Shown here: positions 20,857-51,641 of the stretch, one piece after another | Position numbering within the stretch: position 1 is the stretch's first letter | Layout of the letters: every line of letters starts with the position of its first letter | NCBI GenBank assembly: GCA_951406725.2 | Contig: OX597814.1 | Span: forward strand, 9,176,001 to 9,240,000 | Length of the DNA: 64,000 nucleotides | From: Octopus vulgaris | Taxonomy: Eukaryota | Reading direction: 5' to 3' | Notes under the pieces: generated by a model | Seen by the model: the letters and a program-made list of their open reading frames with translations, nothing else | Database searches by the model: none | Told to the model about the DNA's origin: nothing | Made by a program: the position numbers and the translations under genes

Positions 20857-20915
<59 letters not shown>

Positions 20916-22439: not shown

Positions 22440-22484
<45 letters not shown>

Positions 22485-25400: not shown

Positions 25401-28400
25401 AAGCAAAGGACCACTTTTGCTGTCACAGGAGTGTGACGAAAGAACTCTGGCCGAAATAAGATTAAGATTAATGTAAAAAATAAATAACACTGAAGCAAAG
25501 TAACACCAAATATATAGTGCGTGCGTTTTTTATTGGCTAAACTGGCAAAATAACCATTCTGAAATATAACAATAATAATAATCACTGATGTTTAATAGAG
25601 AAGACACCATAATATTCAATATCAACAAACAAATTGTTTACCTTTTGAATGAAATCCTTCATTTTCCTGTTTATTTTGGAGATATTCATCAAATTTCTGT
25701 AAAAATCAAAACCATGATTATCATTTTTGTTTAATTTTTTGCTTTTTTTTAAAGAGAAGAGATTTAATTTAACAAAAGACAAAAAAAATATTTAAAATAT
25801 TTAATGATTTCTTTTTAATCAGTAATAAGGAAATGAGGAAAATTTCTTTTATCACTCAGATCAAAGATATTCCATCCATGGCCTTCCAGTCTACTGGGAG
25901 ACATGGTATTATAGTGGATGCGGCAGAAAAACCTTCCACTGTGACCACTGATGTGGTGTCAGTGAAGTTAAACATGTGGCAATGGTGTCTTCATGTAGCT
26001 GAAGTTGTATTGTTTCTTCTCTCCACTCACCATTCTGATTAAAACTGCTGAGTCTTGTGTTTGCTGTTGAAATGTCTATCAAGAATGTTGAAGTTGAGGT
26101 TCTTTGGTGCATCTTGTGTAGCCAAGAATATTTGAGCAACAAAAGCAGAGTACAAGGTAATTATTTTCATATTGTAAGCAAGAAGGAGGAGGTGGAGGAG
26201 GTCCAACAATTAGGATCATGGTCATTCATAAGAGAGATAACAAAGGAAAAGAGAAAAGATTCAAAAAGAAAGAACTTCACAAACAGTTCTACAGTGGACA
26301 GGAATTTCCCCTATTTCTTCATTCAATACCAAAAGGACATAAAGAATGCCTTTCGGTATTAACACTGCTTCTGTTGCTATTAATTATCTTTAATAAGCCT
26401 TCAGGCTATTTGTGACATCAGTGTCTATATATCGTTGACGGAGATTTGGCTGTTATGTTGCTACAGGGCGTCTGTCACTGATGAAACTGAGCAAAGCGAA
26501 AATACATGATCTGGCAGTTCTGGTACCTGTAGCAGATGATTGTCGTCTACAAACAATGTAAATATGAGTGCTTTTATGGACCGTGTGTCCATATGAGAGG
26601 TCCTCTCAAGGTAAATAAGGCAGTATTTGGTGTTCTAACACAACATCCACATTTAGTTGGACATAAATATTGCCTCTTGATATTAATACTGCTTCAGTTA
26701 TTATTACTTTTAATTACCTTGATTTAGGTTCAGTCCATGTGTCCATCCATCCATCCATCCATCCATCCATCTGATTGGCTATTGTCTGCATCGTCTCACA
26801 TAAGTCCATATATTTATGTATTTATGCATATACTCTTTTACTCTTTACTCTTTTACTTGCTTCAGTTATTTGACTGCGGCCATGCTGGAGCACCGCCTTT
26901 AGTCAAGCAAATTGACCCTGGGACTTATTCTTTGTAAGCCCAGTACTTATTCTATCGGTCTCTTTTGCCGAACCGCTAAGTGACGGGGACATAAACACAC
27001 CAGCATCGGTTGTCAAGCAATGCTAGGGGGACAAACACACACACATACATATACATACATATATACGACAGGCTTCTTTCAGTTTACGTCTACCAAATCC
27101 ACTCACAAGGCACTGGTCGGCCTGGGGCTATAGCAGAAGACACTTGCCCAAGATGCCACGCAGTGGGATATATCTGTATATATTTTTGACAGAAAGGTGC
27201 CTAATAACATCTGCTTGCTATGAGTGAAGCTTGCTTGAAAATTAGCCCATTAAGGGTGAATTTTCATATTGCAAAATCTTATCTCATAAACATTTTCATC
27301 TGTCTGGGAAACATACATGGACAGTGCAGCTAACACTATCAGCGTTCCTGTGTTCCAGTTAGAAGTGGAATTTCTACCATTACCATTACTGACCACTTTG
27401 AAGAAAAAAGAAAACATTGATGCACTCACACACACACACTTGAACAACAATACGCATACTGACACAAGCTTTCCTTCCAAACAAATGGGAAGGGAAGGCA
27501 AATAGATGAACGGTGCAACCACCTCTATTATCTCTCCTTTTACTACCACTGTTACAAAAACCACTACCACCAGCAACACTACAGTTGACAGACCGAATAA
27601 CTTTGCAGCTATTTTAAGACAAAAAAGGACAGTGAATGTCCTTCTCAACAGAAGAACTACTACAATGCAAAAAGTTATTAAACAAAGAAAACAGAAGTAT
27701 AAACCTCAACACCCCAGAAGGCATTTTGCAGGACAAAATCTAAAAATAAACAATAATATATAAAACCCTAAATATAAAGATTAAAAAACTAGAACAAGTC
27801 ACTCAACAAACAGTTGAGAACAGTCTACGGCCCGTATGGGCTTATGAAACATATATCACAAGGGGCAAAAGATTTACCACCATCCAGGTAGGACTTGACA
27901 CGGAGGAGCGCATGAAAGATTTATCAGGGAAATTCCTCAAATGAGAGGACTTGATAATGATTCCCACTTACCTTGGTTGTCGGGTGATGAAGGTGAGACA
28001 CAAAGATGTCCCCTCTGAGATACAAATAAGATGGCTGTTGTCAGCTGTCTGTTATGATTTTGAAGAAAATTTAAATATATTTAAAATTGCTGTCCTGGAA
28101 CAGCAAAACTGGGTTGGATGAGGGGTGGAGCTTGTAATCCAAACAAATCAGGAGACAATTGAAAAGCTCCCAGATTTAATAAAGCTACCGGATGGCATGA
28201 ATCTAAATGTCACCATTGAGGGTAGAAGGCCACGTTGCTACCTTTGTGGTAGCAAACACCATTTAAAAATTGACTACAAATTGGCAAAACAACAACAAGA
28301 CCAGAGTCCCAAGAGTAAACCAGCACTGTTACCCACACGACCATCAACACAAAAAAGGAAACAGTTCCACGAACAGATGAAAGAACTCCACAAAACAACC

Positions 28401-31400
28401 CACTGACTTAGCCAACCTAAGCAGTCAACACCGCCAGCAACAGAAGCAACAACATCACCACCACCACCACCAACAACAACAGCTACAGAAGTACTGAACC
28501 CTGAAAAGGAAAAAAAAGACCAACCCTTCATCCCAACAGCCACCAACCATCTCTAACAACAGCATCAACACCAACACACTCTCAAATCGACCCCAATACC
28601 ATTTCCCTCCTATTTTCTGTTTCCTTTGACATGTCGTCTGATGAAGGTGACACAGAAGAACGACAAATAGCCACAGGGGGGGGAAGGGGTGAAAAAAAAA
28701 GAACTACACAATCAAACAAGGGAGGGAGATCAAAAACTCCCGACAACAAAACTCCCACACATAACAACATCAGCACCAACACAAACACCAACAAAGCTAA
28801 CCGCCATCAACACAAACAATTTGGATCTGATGCAATACATTAGGTCAAACACCGACATAACACCAAGACAATGTTAAAACTAACAACCACCCATGCACAA
28901 CACATAAATATCCTGCACATGATGCAAAATGCACAATACACTGAAATATCTCTAACCCAATGCAGAAGAGAGATTTCAAAAATATCTCCCGGAAAAACTA
29001 TATAAAAACCTCCTGACAGAAACGTCTAAGGAGGAAAGCAACCAACTTTCAAACAGTAAGTGACTCTCTCTCTCTCTCCCTCCTTTTTCTTTTTCTCCCT
29101 GAGTGTAAAACACAAGTTTCGTTAATGTCATGTTCAAAATAGGTAGTGCAAATGTGCATAGCTTGGTATCCCTTTGGAAACAAGGTTACCTGTTAAATGA
29201 GATCAAATCACAAAATGTAGATATCATAGCTATTGGCGAGACCAGACTCCACAACCCATGGGCCCTCGACCCCATGTTTGCCAGACAATTTGACGTTTAT
29301 TTTTCTCTGTGTCTGCCAAGAATTGGCAGCGGTGGTACTACGGTGCCTTTTCAAAAGAGTCTGAATCTGAAAGTAAGGGCAATATTCCCTGACCCAGAGA
29401 GTAGGCTGGTTGTCTTGGATGCCCATAGCAGTTATGGGTGTGCTTTTCGACTGGTGGCAGTATACACACCGTCCTTATCAGGTTGGCCAGATTTCTTTCA
29501 ATGTCTACAGGTTTTCGTGAGTATGTCTCAAGTTTTACCTTTAGTGGTAGACTGGAACACTATCTTGAACACGTGTCAAAGACCTTCTCAGATGTTTCCA
29601 ACAGTCTGACAGGTTACGACTGGACTACCCAAATGTGCCAATGTGAACATCGACCAACCGCATTGGGTCGTCCAGATCATATTTAGATAGACTATTCTAT
29701 AGGACAGTGAATAAGGATAGTGTAGGTTGTCCACAATTTCAAATATTCAGTTACACAGAACACAAATTTGTGACCCATACACTCGACTTAGATAAGAATC
29801 ATAGGTAGAACCCTGGACACTGGAAACTGAATGCATCACTTCTGGTATGACAGGCTTACAGAGACCAGATTAGCATGTTAGTTAGGATGGCATTGATGGG
29901 AGCGATCGTAGTTTGCCCTAAAGAAGGCAATTAGAGCAGAGTCAATTAGGTATAGCAAAACCTTAGCAATAGATCAAAACAGAGCAAAGGGAGACAGTTA
30001 AGAAATTAGAAGAGGCATTTAGAAGCCTGACCAACGTGCTAGTAGGGAGGTTGGCCCTCAACTAACACTTCAATGTCAAACACAAAGGGTGCGTTGGCAG
30101 GGCTAGGATGTGTGCTCTAAGAAACGAAGGTGTTGGAGCTGTGCGAGAGGCCCAGGTGGCAGAGGGCAACAGGGCAACAAATCCACCATTCGGTCTCTGA
30201 TGGATGAACATGGACACAAATTACTCGAGCCCAGTAAAATGTGTGACGCCTTTCAGCAGTACTTTACCCGACTGTTTGGGACACATTGACCTGGTTGGCA
30301 AGACACTAAGGGAGTATGAATCAGTAACAGGAGATAAAATTAACCGGGATAAGTCAGTGGGTTTGTGTCTCAGCACCTGGAGAAGCAAACCCATGCCACC
30401 CAGCAGTGTCTTCATCATGGGACGCTTGACTGATGAACCAGTTAAATTGCTTGGTGTTTGGTTTGGTCCAGAACTCCAAATGGAGAACTGGGATGAGATA
30501 ATGAGAAGAGTGGTCAATCTCACTCAGCTATGGGCTGAGATGAAGCTATCTCTAAAAGGTCGGGCTGAGGAGGAAAGAAGTGGCAAATACGTATATTGCC
30601 TCAGTCATCGATTATCGCCTGACCGTCTAACCGTGTCCCGATGCCACCATCATGAAACTAGAACACATACTCTTTTGATTTCTGTGGAAGGGTAGCATTC
30701 CGATGGTGAGGCAATATATTTGCTGTCAACATCCGTTAAATGGGGGACTGGGGATGCCATAGCTGATGATGCCCAAATGGTTCTCAACACTAACTCTCCA
30801 CACAGATGAGTTAGTGATGATAACAACATATCTCCACCAAAGAGTGACAAAAGTCACAATAAAATAATGTGCCTCCAGAAATAGATACACAATAGCAAAT
30901 ATCTGCCATCTGTTTTGAAATGGAGGAGAGCATCATACTGGAAATTGCTGTAATGAGGAAAAACCTAAGGAGGAGACACAAAAACTTTCAAATGGTAAGT
31001 AACTCACTTTTCTTTTCGTTTGTGTTTTAAAACACACACACACACACACACTTCATTAGGATTATGATCAAGATTGGTTGTGTAAATGCTTGAGGTTCCC
31101 TTGGAAACAAGGGTACCTATTAAATGACATAAAGTCATATGATTTAGATATCATAGCCACAAGTGAGACCAGACTCCATAATCCACGGGCCTTAAAGTCC
31201 ATATTTAGCGGACAGTTAAACATTTATTTTTCTCCCTCTCTACCTAGAATGGGCAGTAGTGGCATGGTGATACTTTTGCACAAGAGTCTGGATCTCGAAA
31301 TAAATACAATATTTGTAGAGCTGGAGGGTAGACTGGTTGTCCTGGATGTTGGCAGCATCAGTGGGTGTGCTTTTCAACTCATATCAGTCTATGCAGCGCC

Positions 31401-34400
31401 TTTAACAGGTCAGCTGGATTTCTTTTGACGTCAAGAAGTATTTCTAGGAACATCTCATCCTTTACTTTTAGTGCAGGATTAGAATGCTACCTTGGACATG
31501 CATCTAGACTATGTAGGGACTAATAGGAATAGATGGGGATGCAAAAGCCTGAGTGACCTGTTCAGACACTTCCGACTATTGGACAGGTACTGACTCGATC
31601 ACCTGAATGCACCAATGTGAACATGGAGCAACCGCATTGAGTCGTCCAGATTGTATCTAGATAGAATACTGTGTAGGACAGTCGATAGAGATAGTGTAGG
31701 GTGTCCACAACTCCACATAGTCAGCTACACAGATCACAAACTTGTGACGTGCACACTAGACTCAGATAAGGCACATAGGCAGGGTCCTGGTTACTGGAAA
31801 CTGAATGTGTCTTTCCTGTCAAAACAGGTTTATAGAGACTGGATTAGCAATGCTAATGAAGAGGGCTTTGATGGGAGCCATCATCAACAACAAATGATGG
31901 TTTGTCCTCAAGAGATCAATAAAAGCCAAATCAATTAGGTATAGCAAAGCGCTAGTGATAGATAGAAACAAAATAGAGGGTGACCTAGTTAAGAAACTAG
32001 AAGAGGTGATTAGAAGTGATTAGCTCTGGCATATTGCCAAACACGAAGGATGCAGACTAGGATGCATGCTCTAAGAAACAAAGGTGTTGGAGCCACGTGA
32101 GAGGCCCAGATCATGGAGGCGCAACAGGCTAACAAAGCCATCATTTGATCTCTGATGGATGAACAAGGGCATGAATTATTCGAGCCTAGTAAAATGTGTG
32201 AGGCCTTTCAGCAGCACCTTGCTCGTCTGTTTGAGACAAGTGGTGAGCTAGAACACAGAGAGAACTTCAGTTCCTACCTGTACAGCTTGCCAGGGCCCTC
32301 AGCAAGAGAGGCAGAGTGTTGTGAGGGTGCCATCACAGCGGTAGATGTGTGGGATATGATGGCAGAGTGCTCGAGGGACAAATTGCTGGGTTTGGATGGT
32401 CTGCCCTATGAGCTTTATAGTTGTATGCCAGACTTGTTTGGAGGCATATTGGGAACATCCCCAGTTTTGTGAGCCAAGCAGCCATAACACTGCTAAAGAA
32501 AGACCCAAACAAAGGGGACATAATAGATAACTTTAGGCCCATCACTCTGCTTAATGCAGATTTGAAAATTTTGGCCAAGGTGCTAACCAAGAGGTTGGTA
32601 CTTGTCATCGAGAAACTGGTTGACAAGACGCAAACATGCACCATGCCGGACCAGAGCACCCATGACAACCTTCACTTCATGCGCTACATCATAGACAGGG
32701 TAGTTAAAGAACCTGGTATGGGTGGGGCACTGATCAATTTAGATCACTCCAAAGCTTTCAATAGGGTAGACCATCGATACTTGGAGGCTGTCCTCATAGT
32801 GGCTGGTTTCGGTCCCATCTTCTGCGAATGGATCACTGCCTTATACAAAGGCATCCATTCAGTAATTTGCACGAATGGGCATCTATCAAGACCATTCAAC
32901 ATTGCATGTTCAGTCCATCAGAGATGCCTTCTCTCTTCGCTTCTGTACGTATTGACCCCCGAGCCACTACTGCAGAAACTGGTGACACTGAGGGGCATCC
33001 CAAGAGAATTGGGATGCAGGATGAGCATGTAGGCATACACGAATGATGTCACCATCATAGTGTTTAGCCATGACCACATCGAGCTGGTTGGCGAGACACT
33101 GAAAGACTACAAATGGTAACAGGAGCGAAGATTAACCGGGAAAATTCAGTGGGCTTGCAGCTTGGCACCTGATGAAGCAAGCCCATGCTGTCATGGGATG
33201 CTGTACTGACAGTCCAGTCAAATTGCTCAGGGTCTGGTTTGGTCCAGACCTCCAAACAGAGAACTGGGACGAGATAACAAGTAAGGTGGTCACTCTCACC
33301 TAGCAATGGGCCGAAAGGAAGCTGTCCCTAGAAGGTTGGGTGGAGGTGGCGAACACGTACATCGCGTCCGTCATCTACTACCGCCTGACCATCGTGCCTT
33401 GTCCCGACCCTACCATCACCAAACTAGAACGAATCGTTAATGATGCACAGTCTTGTGCTGAGACTGCGACATCTCCAGCTCTATGTAGATGATAGTGAAT
33501 AGGTGTGGTCACCATTTGTGAGGCGCACTTTCCCACACCTCATCTCCATGACCGAACTGCAACCATGGATAAAGAAGAGACTGGGGAAGGGCAAATGGCA
33601 CCGTGAGTGTTGTGTTGCTCCCAAGCAACTCTGTAGGTCTGTCTATCTATCTATCTTTCTTTATCTATCTATCTAATACTGTTTCTATCTCAAGCTCTCT
33701 CCAATACACAACTAAACTTGACACTTACAGGCACTGTCCAACTTGGATTCCTTGATTGACTCATTTAAGTAATACAGTTCAATTCTTTTTTCTTTTACTT
33801 GTTTCAGTCATTAGACTACAGCCTTGCTGGAGCAATACCTTGAAGAATTTTTACATGAACTAATTGATCTTTTAAGACAGGTGCTTGTTTTAACATGTCA
33901 TTTGCCAGACAGCTAAGTTATGGGGACTTAAACAAACCAACATGGGTTCTTGAGTGGTGTATTCTGGGACTGACACAGCCACAAAGACACACACACACAC
34001 ACTTGTGTATATGTATGATGATGATTATCATGATCATGATGATCATCATTGTTTAAACGTCCACTTTCCCTGCTGGCATGGTTTGACTGAGGGCTGGAGA
34101 GCCAGAAGGCTGCACCAGGCTCCAATCTGACCTGGCAATGTTTCTACAGCTGGATGTGCTTCCTAACACCAACCACTCTGAGAGTGATATGTGGATGCAT
34201 TTTACGTGTCACAGGCACAGAAGCTGGTCAAGCGGTCCTGGCATCCATCACGTTCAGATAGTGCTTTTTATGTGCTACTGGCACAGGAGCCAGTCAGAAG
34301 GTACTGGTATCAGTCACATTGGGGTGATGCATTTTATGTGCCACTGGAATGGAAACCAGTGAGGGGCACTGGCCACAGCTGTGATTTTTGGTTTTACCTA

Positions 34401-37400
34401 ACTCAACAGACCTCAAGCAACACTGGCATCGGCCATGGATACGATTTCACTTTAGTTGCCAGGTCTTCTAAATAGCACAACATATCTCCAAAGGTCACTT
34501 GCCATTGTCTCAGTGAGGCCCAGTGTTCAAAGTTCATGCTTCACCACCTCATCTCATGTCTTCCATAGCTTCCGTCTACAATTAGGGAGTGGCACTTCTT
34601 CACACAGCTGTCCTCATCCATACTTAACCCATGACCATACCAGCGCAGTCATCTCTCTTGCTCACCACATTTGATGCTTCTTCTGCACAACTTTTCTCTC
34701 AGGGCGCTTACACTCTGTCGTGTATGCACACTGACATTACACATCCATTGGATGATACTAGCTTCATTTCTTTCAAGCTTACGCATGTCCTCAGCAGTCA
34801 TGGCCCATGTTTTACTGCTGTGTAACATGGCAGTTTGCACACATGCATCATACCTTTCATCCTGAGCGAGGGGCCTTTAGTTGCCAGGAGGGGTAGGATC
34901 TCCCTGAACTTTGCCCAGGCTATTCTTATTCTAGTGGTAACACTCTCTGAGCATCCACCCCCACTACTACCTTGGCCACCTAGGTAGCAGAAGCTAACAA
35001 CTACTTCTAGTTTTTCCCCTTGTCATGTGATAGAATATGTTTTCTGTATATCTTCAGTGCTTATTGCCCCTGTGCATTGGCCACATACAAAAACTATTTT
35101 CCTGGTTAACCTTCCTTTGATATTGCTAAACCTTTTATGTGTCCATAGCTTACACTGGGTGCATTGTAAGGAGCTTATACCCATGCCTTTTCTACCGCTC
35201 GGTTCACAAATGGCCTGAACTCTTTACATGAATGCCACCCTGTACATAACTCCATGTCCCCCTACATGGCCTTGCTTTTTGCTTTTTGAGCCAAAAAACT
35301 AACCAACTAACTAACTACAGATCGAGCAGGATCATCTACCTGAAGGGGTTTGTGATTTGTCATCATTCCTATTTACTAAGACTTTTGTTTTTGCTAGGTT
35401 AAACCTAAGCCCCTTCGATTCTAGACCTTGCTTTCACACCTTAAATTTCGTCTCTAGTTCTGACAGTGACTCAGCTATTAGAGCAAGGTCATCAGCATAG
35501 AGGAGCTCCCAAGGGTAGCCTGTCTTGAATTTCTCTGTTATTGCCTGGAGGACTATAATGAACAAGAGCGGCTGATGACTGATCCCTGGTGAACCACTTC
35601 TTCTAACCAGAATTCTTCACTATACTCGTTGCCAACCCCCGCCTTACTAACAGCATCCCTGTGCAGGGTTTGTACAGCTCTTACCAACCACTTGTCTATC
35701 CCCAGTTTCCACATTGACCACCAGAGAAGGGATCAGGGGACCCTGTCAAAGGCTTTTTTCATGTCAATGAAAGCCAAGTATAGAAGTTTATCTTTGGATA
35801 GATATTTCTCCTGCAGCTGTCTTACCAGAAATATAGCATCAGTGGTGCTTCTGCCTGGCACAAAACCAAACTGCATCTCATCTAGGCTAACTCTCTCCCT
35901 AATTAGTTGGACTTTGACCCTCTCTGTAACTTTCATCACCTGATCCAATAATTTGATACCTCTGTAGTTATTTCTATCTAAAGCATCACCTTTCCCCCTT
36001 GTGACAGTTTGAATATGGTGCTGCTACACCAGTCATTGGGTATGACTCCTTCATGAACTACATGATGGTGGGTGACAAGACCCTAACCCACACCACCCGA
36101 TATTTTAAGCATCTCTGCAGTGATTGCTGATGGGCTGTCTTCATATCCTTAATTGCTTTATCTACAGGGTCCCTCAATTGGGTCGATCTTTGGAAGATTC
36201 TCCTCCTCCCAATTCATTCTCTGCATTCAGCAGTCTTTCATAATGCCATATCCAAGCCTCTTCCTTTGCAGAATCATTAAACACAAGGGCTCCATCATCC
36301 ATGCAAACACATTTCTCTCCTATAGCATCACAGTTTTCTCTCACACACTGTGGAAACTAGGGATAGATGAATGGTTAGTGAAAGTTGTGCAAGCCATGTA
36401 CAAGGATGCTGTCAGTAAGGTGAGGGTTGACAATGAGTAGAGTGAAGAATTCCAGATAGGGGTAGGGATCCACCAAGGATCAGTGCTCAGCCCCCTCTTA
36501 TTCACCATAGTCCCCAGGCAATAACAGAGGAATTCAGGAGAGGATATCCCAGGGGAGCTCCTCTATGTTGATGACTTGCTCTAATTGCTGATTCACTATC
36601 AGAACTAGAGTAGAAATTTCAGGTGTGGAAGCAAAGATTAGAATCGAAGGGCCTTAGAGTTAATCTAGCTAAAACCAAAGTCCTAGTAAGAAGGAAGTCA
36701 GACAAATTGCAAATTCCTTCAGGTAGATAGCCCTACTCGATCGGTAGAAAAGGTGTAGGTAGAAACTCCGTAAGATGTACTCAGTGTAAGCTATGGATGC
36801 ATAAGAGGTGCAGCAATATCAAAGGAATGCTAACTGGGAAGATAGTTTTTGTATGTGGCAGATGCTCAGGAGCAATAAACACAGAAAATGTGCAGAGAAC
36901 AGCTTCTGTCACATTCCTAGGGAGAAAAACTAGAAGTAGTTGATAGCTTCTCTTACCTAGGTGACCAAGTCAGTAGCAGGGGTTGATATTCTAAGAGTGT
37001 AGCTGCTAGAATAAGAATAGCCTGGGCAAAGTTCAGAGAGCACTTACCTCTGCTGGTGACCAAAGGCCTCTCGCTCAGAGTAAAAAGTAGACTGTATGAC
37101 ATATGTGTGCAATAAGCCATGCTACATGGCAGTGAAACATGGGCCATGACTGCTGAGGACATGCGTAATCTTGCAAGGAATGAAGCCAGTATGCTCTGCT
37201 GGATGTGCAATGTCAGTGTGCATACACAACAGAGTGTAAGCGCCCCGAGAGAAAAGTTGGACTTAAGAAGCATCAGATGTGATGTGCAAGGGAGATGACA
37301 GCACTGGTATGGCCATGTGTTGTGTATGGATGAGGACAGCTGTACAGCTGTGTGAAAAAGTGTCACACCCTAGCAGTAGAGAGAAACTGGCAGTAGAGGG

Positions 37401-39850
37401 AAGACCTGGGATGAAGTGATGAAGCACGACCTTCGAACATTGGGTTATACCGAGGCAATGATAAGTGACCGAGACCTTTGGAGATATGCTGTGCTTGAGA
37501 AGACTCAGCAAGCCAAGTGAGACTGTAACCATGACATATGCCAGTGTAGCTTAACCAGCCCGTTTAAGAGTACCCTTCAATCATTGGCCAATAAACTGCA
37601 CTTGCAAACACCTGTTGAGACAAGTGAAGTCATTGTCATGGCCAATAACAGTACTTCCTGATTGGCTCCTCTGCCAGTGGTACATTAAAAGCACTGTTCA
37701 AGCGTGATCTTTGCCAGTGCCACCTGACTGGTTCCTCTGCCAGTGGCATGTAAAAAGTATCATTTGAGCATGGTCGATGCCAGTGCCAGCTGACTGGTCC
37801 TGTCCTGATGGCATGTGAAAAAAACCAGTCGAGTGTGATCATTGCCTGTACCACCTGACTGGCCCTTGTGCTGGTGGCATTTGAAAATCACCCACTACAC
37901 TCTCAGAGTGTTTGGCGTTAGGAAGGGCATCCAGCTCTAGTAAGTTTGCCAGATTGGAATGAAGCCTGGTGCAGCCTTCTGGCTTGCCAGCCCTCAATCA
38001 AACCGTCCAACCCATGCCAGTATGGAAAGCGGATGTTAAATGATGATGATGTTGAACATAAAACAACAAACAACAAATACATCAACCAACCTTTGCTATT
38101 TCTGTGTCTTGAGGACAAACCACAAAGTTTACAACTTTGATCCGGCTTGAATTTTGATTTGAGTAGTTTTTCACTGCTTCATACATTGTTCTGGGTAGTT
38201 TTCCAATGGGGTATTTCATTTCAGCCCCTAATATAGGAAATGCCAGGCTTTTTGCACCCATTCTCTCAGCCTTTTCCAGACAAGTGGTTATTATTTGAGT
38301 CAAGTTTGCCAGAATCTAAAAAAAATAAGTGTTTAGCAATTGATAATGAATATTTTATTAAATTATTTTCTTATTACAGGAAGAAACCATTAAGTTGTAA
38401 TAAATATATCCTCCTCTCACTCCTACCACTTCTAAACACAACTGTCATTCCTATCACTCTTTAGTCCTGCAAGAGACAAGGCAACCTCACTCATGATGCT
38501 GCTACAATAAATCAGACCCAATCCACCGTATAAAATGGTTGGTGAATGAAGAGAGAGAATGCAGACCCAAGAGGAGTCTTTAGTGTTGTTGAGGACATGA
38601 CAACCTGTCTAGTGCTCGTGCCATGACAGAGAAAAACTCACCAATACAGAGAGTAAAACAGAGAAATATGTTTTAATATAGTCTTATTTATCAGTCACAT
38701 AACTGTTGTTAGGCCATGAGGCTTTTTCCCTTCTATTTATATATAAAAGTGTCCTGTTCATCGATATCTTCTGCTTCCTTCCAATGATAACTTGGAAGAA
38801 CAAATATTAAACAGGATGCTGACATTTGTTTTATGATTCTCACACAACATGCATAAGGTTCTCTTCAAACATTAACTCTTTCAATAAATCAATATCATAT
38901 GATTGATACTTACTGAATCGGGGGAATTTTCATCCCAGGGAGGTAATACCAGATGAAATACATTCTTACAGTTGAGGTTATATCCTTTAGTGACGGCTAT
39001 TTTAGATGTAGAAATACCTTGAGGATATTTCTGGTTACATTCGTTTTGTATCTCTGGACCAGCAGCAAAGAGAATAAATTTGGAGATAGAACCATTGTTA
39101 AGCTCAAGGTTTTTATTGGTGCTGTTAACGATGACATCAAACTGAAAAAGTAATTTATGGTAAACAGCTAAGGAACATTCCATGGAGAGAAGAGAAATAC
39201 ATTGTTGCAGTTGATATTGTTGTTAAGAAAGGCTGTACAGAATGGCTGTAGTAAGTTTGAGGTTGTTAAAGTTAGCAAAAGATATACTCAAGATATCAGA
39301 TGTGAAGGAAATAAAATGTTTGAGTTAGAATGAGAAAATGTTTTAATTAACTTTAATGATTCCTCATTTGGAAATGAAATAACAATTAAATATAAATATG
39401 TTAAGTGAATCTATTTACTCACATATGCATTAGTAATTGAATCATTTATTGGTTTTATATTGATGCGACCATATTCTCCAGATGCCACATTAGTTCTTGG
39501 TGTCATGGAGGATGGTTCCTGTTGTGAGCCAGGAAGGGATGCGTTTGACGATGCGGTGTCTGGAAATAAACAAAATTCTTTATGTGCTTTGAGTTATTTC
39601 TAATTTTCAATCAAACGTTCTTCTCTGTATTTAAAGAACCACTTTATTCCATATAGACAGTAATATCGGTTGGAAATTTTGGCACAGGGCCATCAATTTC
39701 AAGAGGCACCAAAAGTTGATTTTATTGACTCCAGTTTTCAACTGGTTCTCATTTTATAGACCCTGAAAAGGTGCAACTCAGACTGATGAAATGCAGCTAA
39801 ACATTTCACCCAATTTGCTGATGATTGTACCTTACAATAATAATAATAAT

Positions 39851-39888
<38 letters not shown>

Positions 39889-41415
39889 TTTAGAATGGAA
39901 TTTGGATTCAAGAGTATGAAGTAATCTACCTAAAAAGATGCAAGGCACAGTCCCTGACAGAAACAGAATTACTGAATTTAGACTCAATTGAGCAAATTGA
40001 AATGGAAGAACACAAATACCTTTGTGTACTGGAAGTCAACGAGATAATGGAAAAGGAAACGAAAGAGCAACTGAGGATGGAGTATTTCCGAAGACTGAAG
40101 TTGGTGTTGTGCTTGAAATTGACTGGATGGAATAAAGTCTAGTCCAAGCAGTCAATACGTGGGTGATAGCATCACTTCAGTATGGAGTGGGAATTATAAA
40201 ATGAAAAATAAAGAAAAAAAGAAGAGAGAAGTGAAGAAAATGGATACCAAGACCAGAAAAATGTTGACAGAAGATGGAACCTTCCACCCTATGAGTGACA
40301 CGGATAAGCTGTACTTGTCCAGAAGAAAGAGTTGGGGAGGTTTGATCAGTTGCCTGGATGATATCGAAGGAGAGAGAAACAGCTTAGGGTGGTATATAAA
40401 AAATTCTGTGGAGCCAGTGTTGAAGGCTGGCATCATCAAAACTGAGAATTGAGGTAACTAAAGAAAAATTTAAATAAGAAATGAACAAATAAAAAGGCAA
40501 AAAACATGGAAGGAAAAAAATGTGTGGTGAGTTTGCAAGAGATGTGAATGCCAAGACAAATGCAAAAGACCAGAGTCTGTGGATGAGGTGGAGTGACCTG
40601 AAGATAGAGATAAAAGCACTCATATGTGCAGCTCAGGAACAAGCATTAAGGACCAATTATATAAAATGCAGAATTGACAACACTACCTATAGCGACAAAT
40701 GCAGAATGTGTGGTGAGAGGGGTGAAACAGTATGGCACATCATTAGTGAATGCCTGAAATTGGCACAACACGAATACAAATGCCATCATGATAATGTAGA
40801 ATGAATGATCCATTGGAAGCTCTGTGGAAATCATGGCCGACAAAGAGCAGAGACATGATATGAGCAAACCCCAGAAGAAGTCACCAAAAATGAAAACTGC
40901 AAAATCCTGTGGGATGTAATGATCCAGTGCAATCACCTAACCAGACATAGGAAACCAGACATTGTTGTGGTGAATAAAAAAGAAAGAACATGTGTGAGTA
41001 TCAACATAGCATGCCCCGGTGACAAGCGGATCAATGGGAAAGAAGAGAAAATAGGCAACTATGATGATTTAAAGGAATATAAAGGCTGTGCTTAGTGAAG
41101 AGAGTACATGTAAGACCAATAGTAATTGGTGCACTTGGAATTATCAGCATTCATCTACCAACATGGCTGAAAAAGATCAGTACAAGTGTGAAGGTAGAAC
41201 ACCTACAAAAATCAACATTGCTTGGATGTGCAAGAATTCTTCACAGGTTCTTGAAGCATGACCAGTAAACAAGTGTCACCTTAGTCTGCTAGCTGTGGAC
41301 AGCTGACACTTTCCATTATACCCTGCAAAATAAGCTGTGAGTTTTCATATAATAATAATGATAATAATAATAATAACAATAATAAAAATAATGATAATAA
41401 TAATAAAAATAAAAA

Positions 41416-41454
<39 letters not shown>

Positions 41455-44400
41455 GCTGATGATGATGATAATAATAATAATAATAATAATAATAATTATT
41501 ATTATAATTATAATAATTATAATAAACATGAAAGACCGAAAAAACCTCACTCTATTCTCAACGAGAGCAAAAAATTTGCCACTGATCTCTAAGATACCCA
41601 CCAGATTGATCATGCTGAAGGAAATGTGCCAACTGCAGCTGCAAAGAAAATAAAATTAATTGCAAAGACAAAAGCACATGAAAATTTAGCTAGCAGATGG
41701 GAACAGAAACCTCTCCATGGCAAGTATGTGGCCCGTAGCAAACAAGCTGATGTCGACCAGAAACACACGCACCAATGGTTACGAAGCTCAGGGCTAAAAG
41801 CAGAGAGTGAAGGTTTCATATTAGCTGCTCAAGACCAATGCATATTAACCCGGAACTACCAAGCCAATGTGACAAAAAAATGGAGCTGATCCAAAATGCC
41901 GATTCTGTAACAATGAGATTGAAACTAAAGACCACCTAATCTCAAGGTGTAGAGTCTTAGCACCTGTAGAATATAAAGCAAGACATGACAGAGTCGGCCA
42001 GTATTTACATTGGACAATATGTCGGCATTATAAAATCAAAACCACTGACAAATGGTATAAACATCATCCTGAAGCTGTGACTGAGGTAGAAAATGTGTCT
42101 ATTCTATGGGACTTCCCCGCACAGACCGACAAGACTATAAAAGCTAATACACCGGATATTATTATAAAAGATCAGACAAAAAGGATGTGTTTATTAATTG
42201 ACATAAGTATTCCCCGTGATCACAATATAGCGGTGAAAGAATTTGACAAGATTAGTAAATATAAAGACCTGCTAATAGAAATTGAAAAAATGTGGCATCT
42301 CAAGGCAACTACAGTACCAGTGATTGTAGGATCTCTAGGAATGATAAAAAAAGGTACTGAAACCTATTTGAAAATGATTCCAGGCTTACCATCCCTACAG
42401 GAAGTGCAAAAAATCGTATTAACTGGAATGGCTCATGTACTGAGAAGAGCATTATCGCTGTGAAAATAACATCCATCCATGAATTTATTTATTTATTAAT
42501 TTTTAAATACATATTTTACCAGTGAATTTGCGTGTGTAATCTGGGAATGCATACAATGAGCTTCTGTCCCCTAGGTGTATGGAAAACACTCGGCGAGAAA
42601 TGGAAGAAAATTTGAAGAAAGAAAGAAAAAAGAATAATAATAATAATTATAATTTACGTTTATATATTTGTTGTGCAAGATTTTTTATGTGAAGTCGTGT
42701 GTTGAAACAGATATTGTATTTCGGAATGGTTATTTTGCCAGTTTAGCCAATAAAAACACACGCACTATATATTTGGTGTTACTTTGCTTCAGTGTTATTT
42801 ATTTTTTACATTAATCTTAATCTTATTTCGGCCAGAGTTCTTTCGTCACACTCCTGTGACCGCATCAGTGGTCCTTTGTTTTCTTCTTTCTTACTAACCA
42901 TCAGCCATTTTGTATTTCTATTGTATGTGTCTTCATTTGCGCATGCGTATATCTCTATGTGCGTCTATGTTTAGTTAGTGGGGGGGGTTGCCTGTAATAT
43001 TTGTATCTTCTGTTTATATACGTTCGTGTAATTTGTTGTTTTTGTTTTTTTCAATTTGTTCATGTTTACATCCACTTATTATTATTATCATTATTATTAT
43101 TATTATTACGTATGCTTGTATGTATGTATGTATGTATGTATGTATAACAACAATACTAGTAATAACAATAATAATAATAATAATAAAACATTAAAAAAAA
43201 TTTTTTTATTTAAAAATTTTTTTTAATCTTTTAAATTTAAAAAAAAAACCTATATAGTTATTTATTTCTATTTGTTTGTTTATCTGTGTATTTTATTTAT
43301 TATGTTTTCAGTTTTGTTTATATTGTAACCAGTTTATGGGGATCTTCTGTCATATGTTGTGGTGTGTGCTAGTGTTCCATTCCAGTTTCCTATTCAGGCT
43401 TGGTTTATCTTCTGTTATGTGTGTAGCTTCTGTAATTTGTCTGATTGTTGCATCTGTTCTATGTGTGGACAAGATTTTAACCTCTATGTTGTTGATTGAT
43501 CTCCTGTGTTCCTGCTCGGCGTGTAGGTACAGAATCGATGAGCTCTTTCCTTCCTTAAGTTCTCTCCAATGTCCATTTACCCACTCTCCTATGCTTCGTG
43601 CTGTTTCCCCTACGTGTGTTGTTGTCTTGTTACTGCATCGTCCCTCTATACATCTTATACTATAGACTACATTTCTGGCTTTACAGTTTGTTTGTGGGCT
43701 AAATCTACACACAGTACAGTACCTATCCGTACAGGGGGTTCTACTAAAAGGGGCTCAATCAACAACATAGAGGTTAAAATCTTGTCCACACATAGAACAG
43801 ATGCAACAATCAGACAAATTACAGAAGCTACACACATAACAGAAGATAAACCTAGCCTGAATAGGAAAGTGGAATAGAACACTAGCACACACCACAACAT
43901 ATGACAGAAGAGGATCCCCATAAACTGGTTACAATATAAACAAAACTGAAAACATAATAAATAAAATACACAGATAAATAAACAAATAGAAATAAATAAC
44001 TATATAGGATTTTTTTTAATTTAAAAGATTAAAAAATTTTTTAAATAAAAAAAAATTTTTTAATGTTTTATTATTATTATTATTGTTATTACTAGTATTG
44101 TTGTTATACATACATACAAGCATACATAATAATAATAATAATGATAATAATAATAATAAGTGGGTGTAAACACATGAGCAAAATAATTAACAAAAACAAA
44201 AAAAGAAACAAATTACACGAACGTATATAAACAGAAGATACAAATATTACAGGCTTCCCCCCCACACACACACACACTAAATATACATAGACGCAAATGA
44301 AGATATACAATAGAAATACAAAATGGCTGACGGTTAGTAAGGAGATACACAAATAAGAAAGAAGAAAGCAAAGGACCACTTTTGCTGTCACAGGAGTGTG

Positions 44401-47400
44401 ACGAAAGAACTCTGGCCGAAATAAGATTAAGATTAATGTAAAAAATAAATAACACTGAAGCAAAGTAACACCAAATATATAGTGCGTGCGTTTTTTATTG
44501 GCTAAACTGGCAAAATAACCATTCTGAAATATAACAATAATAATAATCACTGATGTTTAATAGAGAAGACACCATAATATTCAATATCAACAAACAAATT
44601 GTTTACCTTTTGAATGAAATCCTTCATTTTCCTGTTTATTTTGGAGATATTCATCAAATTTCTGTAAAAATCAAAACCATGAGAATCATTTTTGTTTAAT
44701 TTTTTGCTTTTTTTTTAAAGAGAAGAGATTTAATTTAACAAAAGACAAAAAAAATATTTAAAATATTTAATGATTTCTTTTTAATCAGTAATAAGGAAAT
44801 GAGGAAAATTTCTTTTATCACTCAGATCAAAGATATTCCATCCATGGCCTTCCAGTCTACTGGGAGACATGGTATTATAGTGGATGCGGCAGAAAAACCT
44901 TCCACTGTGACCACTGATGTGGTGTCAGTGAAGTTAAACATGTGGCAATGGTGTCTTCATGTAGCTGAAGTTGTATTGTTTCTTCTCTCCACTCACCATT
45001 CTGATTAAAACTGCTGAGTCTTGTGTTTGCTGTTGAAATGTCTATCAAGAATGTTGAAGTTGAGGTTCTTTGGTGCATCTTGTGTAGCCAAGAATATTTG
45101 AGCAACAAAAGCAGAGTACAAGGTAATTATTTTCATATTGTAAGCAAGAAGGAGGAGGTGGAGGAGGTCCAACAATTAGGATCATGGTCATTCATAAGAG
45201 AGATAACAAAGGAAAAGAGAAAAGATTCAAAAAGAAAGAACTTCACAAACAGTTCTACAGTGGACAGGAATTTCCCCTATTTCTTCATTCAATACCAAAA
45301 GGACATAAAGAATGCCTTTCGGTATTAACACTGCTTCTGTTGCTATTAATTATCTTTAATAAGCCTTCAGGCTATTTGTGACATCAGTGTCTATATATCG
45401 TTGACGGAGATTTGGCTGTTATGTTGCTACAGGGCGTCTGTCACTGATGAAACTGAGCAAAGCGAAAATACATGATCTGGCAGTTCTGGTACCTGTAGCA
45501 GATGATTGTCGTCTACAAACAATGTAAATATGAGTGCTTTTATGGACCGTGTGTCCATATGAGAGGTCCTCTCAAGGTAAATAAGGCAGTATTTGGTGTT
45601 CTAACACAACATCCACATTTAGTTGGACATAAATATTGCCTCTTGATATTAATACTGCTTCAGTTATTATTACTTTTAATTACCTTGATTTAGGTTCAGT
45701 CCATGTGTCCATCCATCCATCCATCCATCCATCCATCTGATTGGCTATTGTCTGCATCGTCTCACATAAGTCCATATATTTATGTATTTATGCATATACT
45801 CTTTTACTCTTTACTCTTTTACTTGCTTCAGTTATTTGACTGCGGCCATGCTGGAGCACCGCCTTTAGTCAAGCAAATTGACCCTGGGACTTATTCTTTG
45901 TAAGCCCAGTACTTATTCTATCGGTCTCTTTTGCCGAACCGCTAAGTGACGGGGACATAAACACACCAGCATCGGTTGTCAAGCAATGCTAGGGGGACAA
46001 ACACACACACATACATATACATACATATATACGACAGGCTTCTTTCAGTTTACGTCTACCAAATCCACTCACAAGGCACTGGTCGGCCTGGGGCTATAGC
46101 AGAAGACACTTGCCCAAGATGCCACGCAGTGGGATATATCTGTATATATTTTTGACAGAAAGGTGCCTAATAACATCTGCTTGCTATGAGTGAAGCTTGC
46201 TTGAAAATTAGCCCATTAAGGGTGAATTTTCATATTGCAAAATCTTATCTCATAAACATTTTCATCTGTCTGGGAAACATACATGGACAGTGCAGCTAAC
46301 ACTATCAGCGTTCCTGTGTTCCAGTTAAAAGTGGAATTTCTACCATTACCATTACTGACCACTTTGAAGAAAAAAGAAAACATTGATGCACTCACACACA
46401 CACACATGAACAACAATACGCATACTGACACAAGCTTTCCTTCCAAACAAATGGGAAGGGAAGGCAAATAGATGAACGGTGCAACCACCTCTATTATCTC
46501 TCCTTTTACTACCACTGTTACAAAAACCACTACCACCAGCAACACTACAGTTGACAAACTGAATAACTTTGCAGCTATTTTAAGACAAAAAAAGACAGTT
46601 AATATCCTTCACAAAAGAAGAACTACTACAGTGCAAAAAGTTATTGAACAAAGAAAATAGGAGTATAAACCTCAACACCCCAGAAGGCATTTTCAGGACA
46701 AAATCTAAAAATAAACAATAATATATAAAACCCTAAATATAAAGATTAAAAAACTAGAACAAGCCACTCAACAAACAGTTGAGAACAGTCTACGGCCCGT
46801 ATGGGCTTATGAAACATATATGACAAGGGGCAAAAGATTTGCCACCATCCAGGTAGGACTTGACACGGAGGAGCGCATGAAAGATTTATCAGGGAAATTC
46901 CTCATATGAGAGGACTTGATGATTCCTACTTACCTTGGTTGTCGAGTGATGGAGGTGAGACACAAAGATGTCCCCTCCGAGATACAAATAAGATGGCTGG
47001 TGTCAGCTGTCTGTTATGATTTGAAGAAAATTTAAACATATTTAAAATTGCTGTCCTGGAACAGCAAAACTGGGTTGGATGAGGGGTGGAGCTTGTAATC
47101 CAAACAAATAAGGAGACAATTGAAATTCTCCCAGATTTAATAAAGCTACCAGATGGCATGAACCTAAATGTCACCATTGAGGGCAGAAGGCCACGTTGCT
47201 ACATTTGTGGTAGCAAACACCATTTAAAAATTGACTACAAATTGGCAAAACAACAACAACAACAAGACCAGAGTCCCAAGAGCAAACCAGCACAATTACC
47301 CACATGACCATCAACACAAAAAATGAAACAGCTCTTTATTTATCTATACCTTTATCTATATGAAACAGCTCCACAAACAGATGAAAGAACTCCACAAAAC

Positions 47401-50400
47401 AACCCACCTACTTAACCAACCTAAGCAGTCAATGCCGCCAGCAACAGAAGCAACAACATCACCACCACCACCACCACCAACAACAGCTACAGAAGTACTG
47501 AACCCTGAAAAGGAAAAAAAAGACCAACCCTTCATCCCAACAGCCACCAACCATCTCTAACAACAGCATCAACACCAACACACTCTCAAATCGACCCCAA
47601 TACCATTTCCCTCCTATTTTCTGTTTCCTTTGACATGTCGTCTGATGAAGGTGACACAGAAGAACGACAAATAGCCACAGGGGGGGGGGAAGGGGTGAAA
47701 AAAAAAGAACTACACAATCAAACAAGGGAGGGAGATCAAAAACTCCCGACAACAAAACTCCCACACATAACAACATCAGCACCAACACAAACACCAACAA
47801 AGCTAACCGCCATCAACACAAACAATTTGGATCTGATGCAATACATTAGGTCAAACACCGACATAACACCAAGACAATGTTAAAACTAACAACCACCCAT
47901 GCACAACACATAAATATCCTGCACATGATGCAAAATGCACAATACACTGAAATATCTCTAACCCAATGCAGAAGAGAGATTTCAAAAATATCTCCCGGAA
48001 AAACTATATAAAAACCTCCTGACAGAAACGTCTAAGGAGGAAAGCAACCAACTTTCAAACAGTAAGTGACTCTCTCTCTCTCTCCCTCCTTTTTCTTTTT
48101 CTCCCTGAGTGTAAAACACAAGTTTCGTTAATGTCATGTTCAAAATAGGTAGTGCAAATGTGCATGGCTTGGTATCCCTTTGGAAACAAGGTTACCTGTT
48201 AAATGAGATCAAATCACAAAATGTAGATATCATAGCTATTGGCGAGACCAGACTCCACAACCCATGGGCCCTCGACCCCATGTTTGCCAGACAATTTGAC
48301 GTTTATTTTTCTCTGTGTCTGCCAAGAATGGGCAGCGGTGGTACTATGGTGCCTTTTCAAAAGAGTCTGAATCTGAAAGTAAGGGCAATATTCCCTGACC
48401 CAGAGGGTAGGCTGGTTGTCTTGGATGCCCATAGCAGTTATGGGTGTGCTTTTCGACTGGTGGCAGTATATGCACCGTCCTTATCAGGTTGGCCAGATTT
48501 CTTTCAATGTCTACAGGTTTTCCTGAGTATGTCTCAACTTTTACTTTTAGTGGGGGATTGGAACACTATCTTGGATATGTGTCAAAGACCTTCTCAGATG
48601 TTTCCAACTGTCTGACAGGTACCGACAGGTTGGCCCTCAACTAACACTTCAATGTCAAACACAAAGGGTGCGTTGGCAGGGCTAGGATGTGTGCTCTAAG
48701 AAACGAAGGTGTTGGAGCTGTGCAAGAGGCCCAGGTGGCAGAGGGCAACAGGGCAACAAAGCCACCATTCGGTCTCTGATGGATGAACATGGGTGCAAAT
48801 TACTCAAGCCCAGTAAAATGTGTGATGCCTTTCAGCAGTACTTTACCTGACTGTTTGGGATATGTGGTGAGTCATAACACAGTATAGACTTTAGTGCCTA
48901 TCTGCATGTCCTGCCACAACTCTCGGAAAGAGAGGCAGAGTGTTGTGAAGGTTTCATCACAGCTGCTGATGTACAGAATTTGATGGCAGGCTGCGTGAGA
49001 GACATGTTGGTGGGCTTGGGTGGTCTGCCCTACATGCTTGTAGCATGGCTCGGTGATATCCTCACTGTTTGAGAGAGATCATAGAAATGATGTCGTGTTA
49101 GATAGCAGCCAGCCTACGGCTACATGGAACTGGTTGTGTCCACTGCCCTGATTGGTTGGTTTTGATGCAGTCTTATTTCGCGCCAGTGTGTAAACCAACC
49201 AATCACGGCCTTTGGATAGGGTCCCATGACACAGTCTTTTGGGTTTTCACTCTTGCTTTAAAAGACGTCATCAATTCACTATATCTCGTCTTTGGTCTTC
49301 AACCACTGACCACAACCAGACCAGCCAGTTCCCACGACTCAACCAGTTCCAGCGACTTCAGCCACGTTCTTGTGATGACACCAACATGCAGTATCTCAGG
49401 AGGTTTTCCACCACCGTCGCCTTTAAGGTGACCGTGCATCATTTAAAAAGAGACATTTCTGTCACCATCTCCTTTACATATGGTTGTCACTACATTCTTT
49501 ATTGTCATATGCCAGACTTGTTTGGGGATCTCTACTGCAATTGGCAGCAAAATGGGAGTACCCTGAGTTTTGTGAACTGAGGAGCAGTGACACTGCTACA
49601 GAAAGACCCAAACAAGGGGGATGTTATACATAATTTCAGGTCCATCACTCTGTTCAATTGCAGATTTGAAAATTTTGGCCAAAGTGCAAGCCAAGAGGTT
49701 GGCACTTGTCATGGAGAAACTGGTCAACAAGGCACAAACATGCACCATGCCAGGCAAAAGCATCCATGATAACCTCCACTCGTGCGCTACATCACAGACA
49801 GGGTAGTTAAGGAAACTGGCATGGGTGGGGCACTGATCAATTTGGATCAATCAAAAGTTTTCAATAGGCTCAGCCATTGATACTTGGTGGCTGTTCTCAA
49901 GGCAGCTGGTTTCAGTTCTGTCATCCGTGGTTAGATTGCTGCTTTATACAGCAGCATCCACTCAGTAGTTCAAGTGAATGGCCATCTGTCCAAACCCTTT
50001 GACATTATGTTTTCGGTTTATCAGGGATGTCCCCTCTTGTCACTTCTGTATGTATTGACTCTTGAGCCACTACTGTGGAAGCTGGTGATACTGAAGGGCA
50101 TCCCACGAGAACTGGGATGCAGGATGAGTATGTTTGCATATGTAGATGATGTCACTGTCAATACTGTCAAGCCTTAGACCTATTGACTTGGTTGGCGAGA
50201 CACTAAGGGAGTACGAAGAAGAGTGGTCAATCTCACCCAGCTATGGGCTGAGATGAAGCTATCTCTAAAAGGTCGGGCTGAGGAGGAAAATGTGTACATC
50301 ACATCAGTCATCTACTGCTGTCTGACCATCTTACCTTGTCCTGATGCTACCAGCATGAAAATGGAATGTATACTCTTCCACTTTCTGCGGAAGGGAAATG

Positions 50401-51552: not shown

Positions 51553-51589
<37 letters not shown>

Positions 51590-51607
51590 TCTATTTGTCT
51601 ATCTATT

Positions 51608-51641
<34 letters not shown>

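What the first reader, a model, noticed from the sequence alone, without database searches (positions are those of the whole stretch)
38200..38240. Natural G->E plus one-codon deletion in the ADP-ribose diphosphate-binding loop of modules 2 and 3: candidate decoy macrodomains
Seen: module 1 has [13 protein letters not shown], whereas modules 2 (here) and 3 (~58700-58735) have [12 protein letters not shown] with the frame preserved. Known: the equivalent loop Gly->Glu (MacroD1 G270E, MacroD2 G188E, chikungunya nsP3 G112E) blocks ADP-ribose binding. All modules also lack the adenine-binding Asp (GDI is GSI/DSI) and have NST rather than the hydrolase NAAN motif. Inference: the array mixes a possibly binding-competent domain with binding-dead or re-specified domains that are kept in frame.
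Basis: partly seen in the sequence, partly recalled or inferred. Interest (0 to 1): 0.7.

Follow-up and report, generated by a model that had tools for sequence, protein, structure and literature searches.

The report
Octopus PARP14 array with pocket-damaged macrodomains
An octopus PARP14-like gene has tandemly copied its ADP-ribose-reading domain, and two of the three copies in this window have lost two conserved pocket features, so they likely no longer bind ADP-ribose well although they are predicted to keep their fold.

Summary
On the minus strand lie three 216-codon modules of an Octopus vulgaris PARP14-like gene, spliced in frame without stops. Module 1 has the loop GAGTLKYP; modules 2 and 3 have GAEMKYP. 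The loop glycine and loop length are invariant in 67 of 67 distant macrodomain-2-like domains. New here: all 14 distinct short-loop Octopus segments also lack the beta-7 adenine-side aromatic (Leu or Cys), which 30 of 36 long-loop segments keep, so impaired ADP-ribose binding is likely. Three corrections. (1) This is better described as deletion of the glycine than as a G-to-E mimic: alignment to human PARP14 MD2 and an AlphaFold model place Glu one position later, and one deletion from a Gly-Lys-Met loop would give Glu-Met outright. (2) The missing Asp and NST are normal for MD2 readers. (3) Frame preservation is forced by the downstream catalytic domain and is not evidence of a decoy; dN/dS is below 1. 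The allele is shared with O. sinensis, appears to move by gene conversion, and always accompanies an intact module. Verdict: new variant of a known kind; binding untested.

The parts
59919..60055 (-). Module 3 exon A (linker, beta1-beta2, GSI adenine site)
   Evidence: matches gene model P0009
59410..59637 (-). Module 3 exon B (NST, loop 1)
   Evidence: Pfam Macro E=2e-11; 100% to P0009
58580..58807 (-). Module 3 exon C: short loop GAEMKYP at 58700-58732; beta-7 Leu (TTA 58607-58609) plus one inserted codon
44607..44661 (-). Exon D after module 3 (C-terminal helix, 55 nt, phase 0 to 1)
39423..39559 (-). Module 2 exon A; its 3' half is a divergent tract identical over 11 residues to O. sinensis paralogues P0015 and P0025
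38914..39141 (-). Module 2 exon B
   Evidence: Pfam Macro E=3.3e-12
38091..38315 (-). Module 2 exon C: short loop GAEMKYP at 38208-38240 (the finding); beta-7 Cys (TGT, about 38115-38117)
25642..25696 (-). Exon D after module 2
20444..20580 (-). Module 1 exon A
19935..20162 (-). Module 1 exon B
   Evidence: best single-domain PDB match PARP14 MD2, 3Q71
19097..19324 (-). Module 1 exon C: canonical loop GAGTLKYP at 19214-19249; beta-7 Tyr (TAT 19121-19123)
6087..6141 (-). Exon D after module 1; gene model P0009 continues from here to the PARP catalytic domain outside the window
14797..29623 (.). 14.8-kb block duplicated at 33795-48629 (98.2% by blastn; 144 of 14138 intron positions differ), carrying exons D-A-B-C
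33795..48629 (.). Second copy of the 14.8-kb block (contains module 2)

Best explanation
Shown: the exon structure, the two linked pocket changes, retention of every other widely conserved column that module 1 has, the same allele in O. sinensis, and an intact module in every protein that carries a short loop. Inferred: shortening the loop by one residue removes the glycine whose backbone amide grips the beta-phosphate and puts a charged residue over the diphosphate; loss of the beta-7 ring weakens adenine stacking. The damaged exon-C allele probably arose once and was spread among modules and paralogues by gene conversion or unequal crossover. The likely outcome is an array that can grow without adding ADP-ribose sites: damaged modules are tolerated as folded spacers (possibly also acceptors of the enzyme's own modification, as human MD2 and MD3 are), because one intact reader is retained.
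For: Gly7 and 12-residue loop in 67 of 67 distant MD2-like domains and Gly in 36 of 36 long-loop Octopus segments. Beta-7 position: Leu 11 or Cys 3 in 14 of 14 short-loop segments; Tyr/Phe in 30 of 36 long-loop ones; Tyr/His/Phe in 64 of 67 distant domains. It aligns with the AF1521 Tyr and the PARP14 MD2 His. An aromatic at the matching site of MacroD2 (Phe224) stacks on the adenine (PMC7729036, passages; equating the two positions is my inference). Backbone N of the loop-2 Gly binds the beta-phosphate (PMC7925111, passages). CHIKV G112E has no ADP-ribose binding (bioRxiv 629881, passages). Of 41 columns conserved in distant MD2-like domains, module 1 keeps 35, module 2 keeps 33 and module 3 keeps 34; the only extra losses are the loop Gly and Leu. 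The AlphaFold model of P0018 folds both module types at pLDDT about 90; best single-domain match 3Q71, rmsd 1.5 A. All 11 of 39 named proteins with a short loop also carry a long-loop module. Module 2 nests with module 1 (98/88) once the trait columns are masked, and the label needs 4 changes, at least 2 forced. Synonymous divergence is raised in exons (dS 0.089 versus intron 0.010-0.019), as conversion predicts. MD2 and MD3 are modified by PARP14 (PMC10499325, passages).
Against: No binding was measured or modelled. If Ala takes the Gly position and Glu the next one, backbone contacts could survive: the side chain at that next position is dispensable in eAF1521 (I144G, PMC7566600) and Ile-to-Ala there raised binding in coronavirus Mac1 (PMC10802294). 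[quoted passage not shown] The two changes lie in one exon and the 14 segments are close kin (several are isoforms of one gene), so the Fisher p of 4e-8 overstates independence. Six long-loop segments also lack the aromatic: three look like mispredicted exon ends, two are an orthologue-like pair with Leu, one is shifted. Exon B of short-loop modules is no more diverged from consensus than in long-loop ones (mean 10.2 versus 11.4 differences), so there is no general pocket decay. The O. vulgaris gene model P0009 skips exons C3, B2 and C2, so inclusion in mRNA is not shown for this gene. P0001 ends in two short-loop modules, so an intact reader next to the catalytic region is not a rule.
Confidence: 0.6

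Rival explanations
1. Neutral passengers: the short-loop allele is a tolerated loss in redundant, recently multiplied domains, carried along by unequal crossover with no function of its own.
For: dN/dS 0.59-0.88 between modules. The loop varies further (PEM, AKM, AEMN). An intact module is always present. Frame is needed for downstream domains anyway (inference). One orthologue-like short module differs at 9 of 150 residues versus 1 of 151 for its long neighbour (P0044/P0010).
Against: Fold columns are retained. The other orthologue-like short pair differs at only 2 of 150 (P0001/P0003). The allele is present in about six gene groups of two species. In module 2 both the short loop and the non-aromatic residue sit on a module-1-like background. 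This rival agrees with the best explanation on loss of binding and differs only on whether the modules matter.
Confidence: 0.35
2. Decoys: the binding-dead modules bait or absorb a pathogen protein aimed at the reader domain.
For: Primate macroPARPs evolve under positive selection, and MD1 hydrolase activity was lost repeatedly in mammals (PMC10221186, sections read). Exons differ five times more than introns between modules 1 and 2 (32 of 645 versus 144 of 14138). The family is strongly expanded and mosaic.
Against: dS is raised as much as dN, and dN/dS is below 1 in all three pairs. No antagonist of an octopus macrodomain turned up in the three octopus or mollusc paper searches. Nothing here shows an immune role for this gene.
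Confidence: 0.1
3. Re-specified pocket: short-loop modules bind another ligand or surface (nucleic acid, differently linked ADP-ribose, a protein).
For: Two pocket positions change together while the rest is kept. Glu is retained in 13 of 14 segments. [quoted passage not shown]
Against: Glu is replaced by Lys in one segment and the preceding Ala by Pro in another; the beta-7 residue has two different derived states, which looks more like loss than like a new constraint.
Confidence: 0.12
4. Still a reader: the loop re-registers (Ala for Gly, Glu for the variable residue, Met for Leu) and ADP-ribose binding is largely kept.
For: AlphaFold keeps the same helical turn at pLDDT about 90. The position after the Gly is highly variable, with 12 residue types in 67 domains. 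Met at the Leu position occurs in 3 of 67.
Against: No 11-residue loop and no non-Gly in 67 of 67 MD2-like domains, and Glu after the Gly in 0 of 67. The beta-7 ring is lost at the same time.
Confidence: 0.18
5. Module 2 is a false tandem duplication (two haplotypes joined), so its short loop is an allele of module 1 and not a separate module.
For: The 14.8-kb blocks differ by 1% in introns, with stretches of several kb almost identical. The gene model merges modules 2 and 1.
Against: About 4 kb between the blocks is unique LINE-like sequence, matching other copies at 68-83% apart from one 234-bp piece at 96.6%. The window has no N. O. sinensis models show the same short-short-long arrays. Module 3 is independent of this block.
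Confidence: 0.12

Closest known systems
Human PARP14 macrodomain 2 (PDB 3Q71, 3VFQ), a non-hydrolysing ADP-ribose reader
   Same: Best sequence and fold match; no adenine Asp, NS-type motif and GxGxLx[FY]P loop as in module 1. MD2 and MD3 are described as binders without hydrolase activity (PMC10470015, PMC10499325, passages).
   Different: Human PARP14 has one MD2 between MD1 and MD3. Here MD2 is repeated, and two of three copies lack the loop Gly and the beta-7 ring.
Engineered loop-2 Gly-to-Glu mutants (CHIKV nsP3 G112E, MacroD1 G270E, MacroD2 G188E)
   Same: A Glu appears in the diphosphate loop where GxG was. G112E abolishes binding; G270E is described as catalytically inactive. G188E as binding-dead is recalled; I read no passage on it.
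   Different: Those keep loop length. Here the loop is one residue shorter, the Glu more likely follows the Gly position, and a Lys variant exists.
Recurrent loss of PARP14 MD1 hydrolase activity in bats, ruminants and carnivores (PMC10221186)
   Same: Lineage-specific inactivation of a macroPARP macrodomain inside an intact gene.
   Different: That is loss of catalysis in a single-copy MD1, which the authors expect to keep reading. This is predicted loss of binding in multiplied MD2 copies beside an intact twin. The paper's accession list has one Octopus entry; the results and discussion parts I read (2-4 of 7) do not describe this array.
Naturally non-binding macrodomains (SARS-CoV Mac2/Mac3; macroH2A1.2 and macroH2A2)
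   Same: Macro fold kept, ADP-ribose binding lost (Mac2/3: PMC7925111; macroH2A isoforms: recalled, only a search listing seen).
   Different: Those are ancient, highly diverged or splice-determined. Here the two states are about 90% identical and are exchanged between modules.

Membership tests
PARP14-like macroPARP | Tandem macrodomains in one reading frame | tested here: met
   Three modules, 646 codons, 0 stops; Pfam Macro
PARP14-like macroPARP | C-terminal PARP catalytic domain | tested here: inconclusive
   Outside the window. Present in gene model P0009 (PF00644), which matches the window only over residues 421-781
PARP14-like macroPARP | N-terminal hydrolase-type MD1 (GDI, NAAN, GG, G[IV]F/YG) | tested here: inconclusive
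   Outside the window. Its N-terminal half is in P0009; a full MD1 in paralogue P0012 matches PARP14/PARP9 MD1 at E about 1e-30
PARP14-like macroPARP | Canonical MD1-MD2-MD3 order | tested here: not met
   All three window modules are near-identical MD2-type repeats; no MD3-like domain appeared in the blast architecture of 39 named proteins (weak test)
PARP14-like macroPARP | WWE domain before the catalytic domain | not tested
   Outside the window; not scanned in P0009
PARP14 MD2-type ADP-ribose reader | Macro fold closest to MD2 | tested here: met
   Model of O. sinensis P0018 versus 3Q71: E 1.3e-15, rmsd 1.5 A
PARP14 MD2-type ADP-ribose reader | No hydrolase motifs (no NAAN/GG, no loop-2 aromatic) | tested here: met
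   NST and Leu/Met in all three modules, as in human MD2/MD3
PARP14 MD2-type ADP-ribose reader | 12-residue diphosphate loop with Gly at position 7 | tested here: not met
   Met by module 1 only; absent in modules 2 and 3
PARP14 MD2-type ADP-ribose reader | Ring side chain (Tyr/Phe/His) at beta-7 | tested here: not met
   Module 1 Tyr; module 2 Cys; module 3 Leu
PARP14 MD2-type ADP-ribose reader | Binds ADP-ribose or MARylated protein | not testable with these tools
Loop-2 Gly-to-Glu steric-block mutants | Glu occupies the conserved Gly position | tested here: inconclusive
   Against: MD2 alignment and model register. For: AF1521 alignment and the Gly-Thr-Leu edit route. Control fold failed
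Loop-2 Gly-to-Glu steric-block mutants | Loop length unchanged | tested here: not met
   One codon shorter
Immune decoy domain | Diversifying selection | tested here: inconclusive
   Pairwise dN/dS 0.59, 0.81, 0.88 on three sequences only; no site models run
Immune decoy domain | Bound by a pathogen antagonist | not testable with these tools
   No candidate antagonist identified

The most novel reading that the evidence does not exclude
Octopus macroPARPs carry a two-state cassette system: gene conversion swaps a reader and a pseudo-reader exon among near-identical tandem macrodomains, selection keeps both states, and the pseudo-readers act as decoys or re-specified sensors in a host-pathogen conflict over ADP-ribosylation.
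Probability: 0.15. Interest if true: 0.8.

Novelty: new variant of a known kind. Interest (0 to 1): 0.48.

Why it matters
PARP14 macrodomains are central to the host-virus conflict over ADP-ribosylation, and known natural losses there concern catalysis. That makes it cheap to test what the invariant loop glycine and the beta-7 ring contribute to reading, and why macroPARPs keep several macrodomains. It also warns that domain counts in invertebrate macroPARPs may overstate reader number. I found no description of the Octopus arrays in the searches run; the library lacks most subscription papers.

Tried and rejected
Positive selection as the cause of exon divergence: not supported, because dS is raised with dN. 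Missing Asp and NST as marks of a dead pocket: rejected. Rule that the last module before the catalytic domain is always intact: 8 of 9 short-loop proteins with a catalytic domain fit, but five are isoforms of one gene and P0001 breaks it; not claimed. Window gene as orthologue of the O. sinensis P0002 array (similar loop order): its tail is only 72% identical, versus 88% to P0020; not claimed. General pocket decay in exon B of short-loop modules: not seen. Gap-free AlphaFold control on six short-loop modules: mean pLDDT 51.6, uninformative. Dating the allele: only two O. bimaculoides proteins were found, one long-loop and one ending before the loop, too few to date it. Species names for the 42 distant relatives could not be obtained, so they are cited by id and their taxonomic spread is unchecked. 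Peptide evidence in the octopus skin-mucus proteome: the supplement was unreadable and may bear on expression; the main text reports a PARP14-like isoform X2 protein (PMC11431876, passages) that I could not map to a module. No complex prediction was run, since the question is ligand binding. Read without useful passages: PMC7237415. Used for context only: PMC6008491, PMC8780475, PMC7232374.

Full report
What the window is. The DNA is AT-rich, full of microsatellites and LINE fragments. Exon B of module 1 found 43 proteins, 34 of them named Octopus sinensis or O. vulgaris proteins, mostly annotated PARP14/15-like; O. vulgaris model P0009 is 100% identical. P0009 maps to the window over residues 421-781 and stitches exons A3, B3, D3, A2, B1, C1, D1. 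The window is therefore the middle of an O. vulgaris macroPARP gene on the minus strand. The MD1 hydrolase domain and the catalytic domain lie outside it and are known only from that model.

Anatomy. Each module is four exons: A (137 nt), B (228), C (228 or 225), D (55). All twelve have AG/GT ends and join into 646 codons without a stop. Transcription order is module 3, 2, 1. Modules 2 and 1 lie in a duplicated 14.8-kb block separated by about 4 kb of unique LINE-like DNA. All modules are closest to human PARP14 macrodomain 2. An AlphaFold model of O. sinensis P0018, which has one short-loop and one long-loop module, matches 3Q71 at rmsd 1.5 A.

The observation. It is exactly as described. It is unusual: in 67 MD2-like domains (score >=70 bits, out of 130 domains kept from 42 unnamed distant relatives; 3 short matches dropped) the loop is always 12 residues with Gly at position 7. 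It is not unique to this window: among 50 distinct exon-C segments from 39 named Octopus proteins plus the three window exons, 14 are short (13 Glu, 1 Lys; variants AEMK, AEMN, PEMK, AKMK) and 36 are long, all with the Gly (module 1 is counted twice, once through P0009/P0020). Both O. vulgaris and O. sinensis have the short form. The single O. bimaculoides loop found is long.

Is it a G-to-E mimic? Probably not in the strict sense. From module 1's codons, one substitution plus a 3-nt deletion gives Glu at the Gly codon, but the same cost applies from Gly-Lys-Leu or Gly-Ile-Leu, and from Gly-Lys-Met a single deletion makes a hybrid Glu codon with no substitution. Gly-Lys-Met occurs in P0045 and Gly-Lys-Leu in the outgroup; their codons were not seen. 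phmmer gaps the Gly against PARP14 MD2 but not against AF1521. In the model, A167-E168-M169 form the short helical turn that G381-V382-L383 form in the intact module; the input alignment had its gap at the Gly, and the gap-free control was unusable. The safe statement is that the invariant glycine is gone and the loop is one residue short.

Human MD2 has EGVQ at the GDI site and NSV, MD3 has NST, both are solved with ADP-ribose, and both are described as readers without hydrolase activity (PMC10470015 and PMC10499325, passages). Asp is present at that site in 12 of 67 MD2-like domains.

A second, linked change. The residue in VV-Y-P at the end of beta-7 is Tyr, His or Phe in 64 of 67 distant domains and Tyr or Phe in 30 of 36 long-loop Octopus segments, but Leu (11) or Cys (3) in all 14 short-loop segments. 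Module 1 has TAT, module 2 TGT, module 3 TTA. It aligns with the AF1521 Tyr and MD2 His. The matching MacroD2 residue Phe224 stacks on adenine, though SARS-CoV and MERS-CoV use Asn there (PMC7729036; the equivalence is my inference from position). Apart from the loop Gly and Leu, modules 2 and 3 keep every conserved column that module 1 keeps. Two pocket positions lost together on an intact scaffold is the best evidence for impaired binding. It is weakened by linkage and kinship, and by exon B showing no extra decay.

How the allele moves. Exons of modules 1 and 2 differ at 32 of 645 sites against 144 of 14138 in introns, but dS (0.089) exceeds dN (0.052). Differences come in tracts: a stretch of exon A where module 2 is the odd one and equals P0015/P0025, and a stretch around the loop where module 1 is the odd one and module 2 equals the P0002 group over 23 residues. 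With the trait columns masked (47 rows, 3 dropped as mispredicted, 70 columns, poorly resolved), module 2 groups with module 1 at 98/88 and the short label needs 4 changes, at least 2 forced by starred branches. An identical deletion with Met is unlikely to recur, so I infer conversion or unequal crossover. All 11 of 39 named proteins with a short loop also have a long one.

Mechanism. One copy keeps reading and the others are folded pseudo-readers that add length but no ADP-ribose sites. I put impaired binding at about 0.75 to 0.8. Whether the pseudo-readers are merely tolerated or selected is open. In-frame retention is no evidence for selection, because a frameshift in any internal exon would remove the catalytic domain. 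Nothing found supports a decoy role specifically.

Comparison and novelty. Loss of macroPARP hydrolase activity (PMC10221186, parts 2-4 of 7 read, supplement searched) and non-binding macrodomains (PMC7925111, passages) are known. A mosaic array of 90%-identical reader and predicted pseudo-reader MD2 copies was not found in searches. It is a new variant of a known kind, with a ready-made experimental pair. Interest 0.48.

Noticed in passing
window 38115-38117, 58607-58609 and 19121-19123 (minus strand): The beta-7 aromatic is Cys in module 2, Leu in module 3 and Tyr in module 1; its loss tracks the short loop in 14 of 14 Octopus segments.
   Followed up: yes
window 39400-39510 (module 2 exon A, 3' half, into the intron): Dense tract of module-2-specific differences covering the adenine-site strand; identical over 11 residues to O. 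sinensis P0015 and P0025, consistent with conversion from a paralogue.
   Followed up: partly
P0009 against window 19097-60055: The public O. vulgaris gene model skips both short-loop exons plus B2, D2 and A1, so the annotation hides this array.
   Followed up: partly
P0001-P0048: Large Octopus PARP14-like expansion built as MD1, one to five MD2 repeats, catalytic domain; no MD3-like domain seen, and some O. sinensis isoforms contain half modules (exon B without C).
   Followed up: partly
window 23744-25569 and 42714-44534: Inverted repeat pair of about 800 bp (87% identical) whose arms translate to a stretch resembling a GIY-YIG endonuclease of Penelope-like elements (label recalled, not tested).
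   Followed up: no
window 10357-14785, 27969-33633, 47174-56780: Stacks of degraded LINE reverse-transcriptase and endonuclease fragments fill the C-D introns and flank the duplication ends; possible substrates for unequal crossover.
   Followed up: partly
window 535-1565, 8859-10345, 22375-22555, 41349-41525: Long ATT and CTAT/32-bp microsatellite arrays, and 65-66-bp tandem units at 18656-18872, 34194-34347 and 37701-37887.
   Followed up: no
P0001, P0003, P0017, P0002: The Ser of NST is changed to Asn or Arg in a few modules, nearly all short-loop ones; too few to test.
   Followed up: partly
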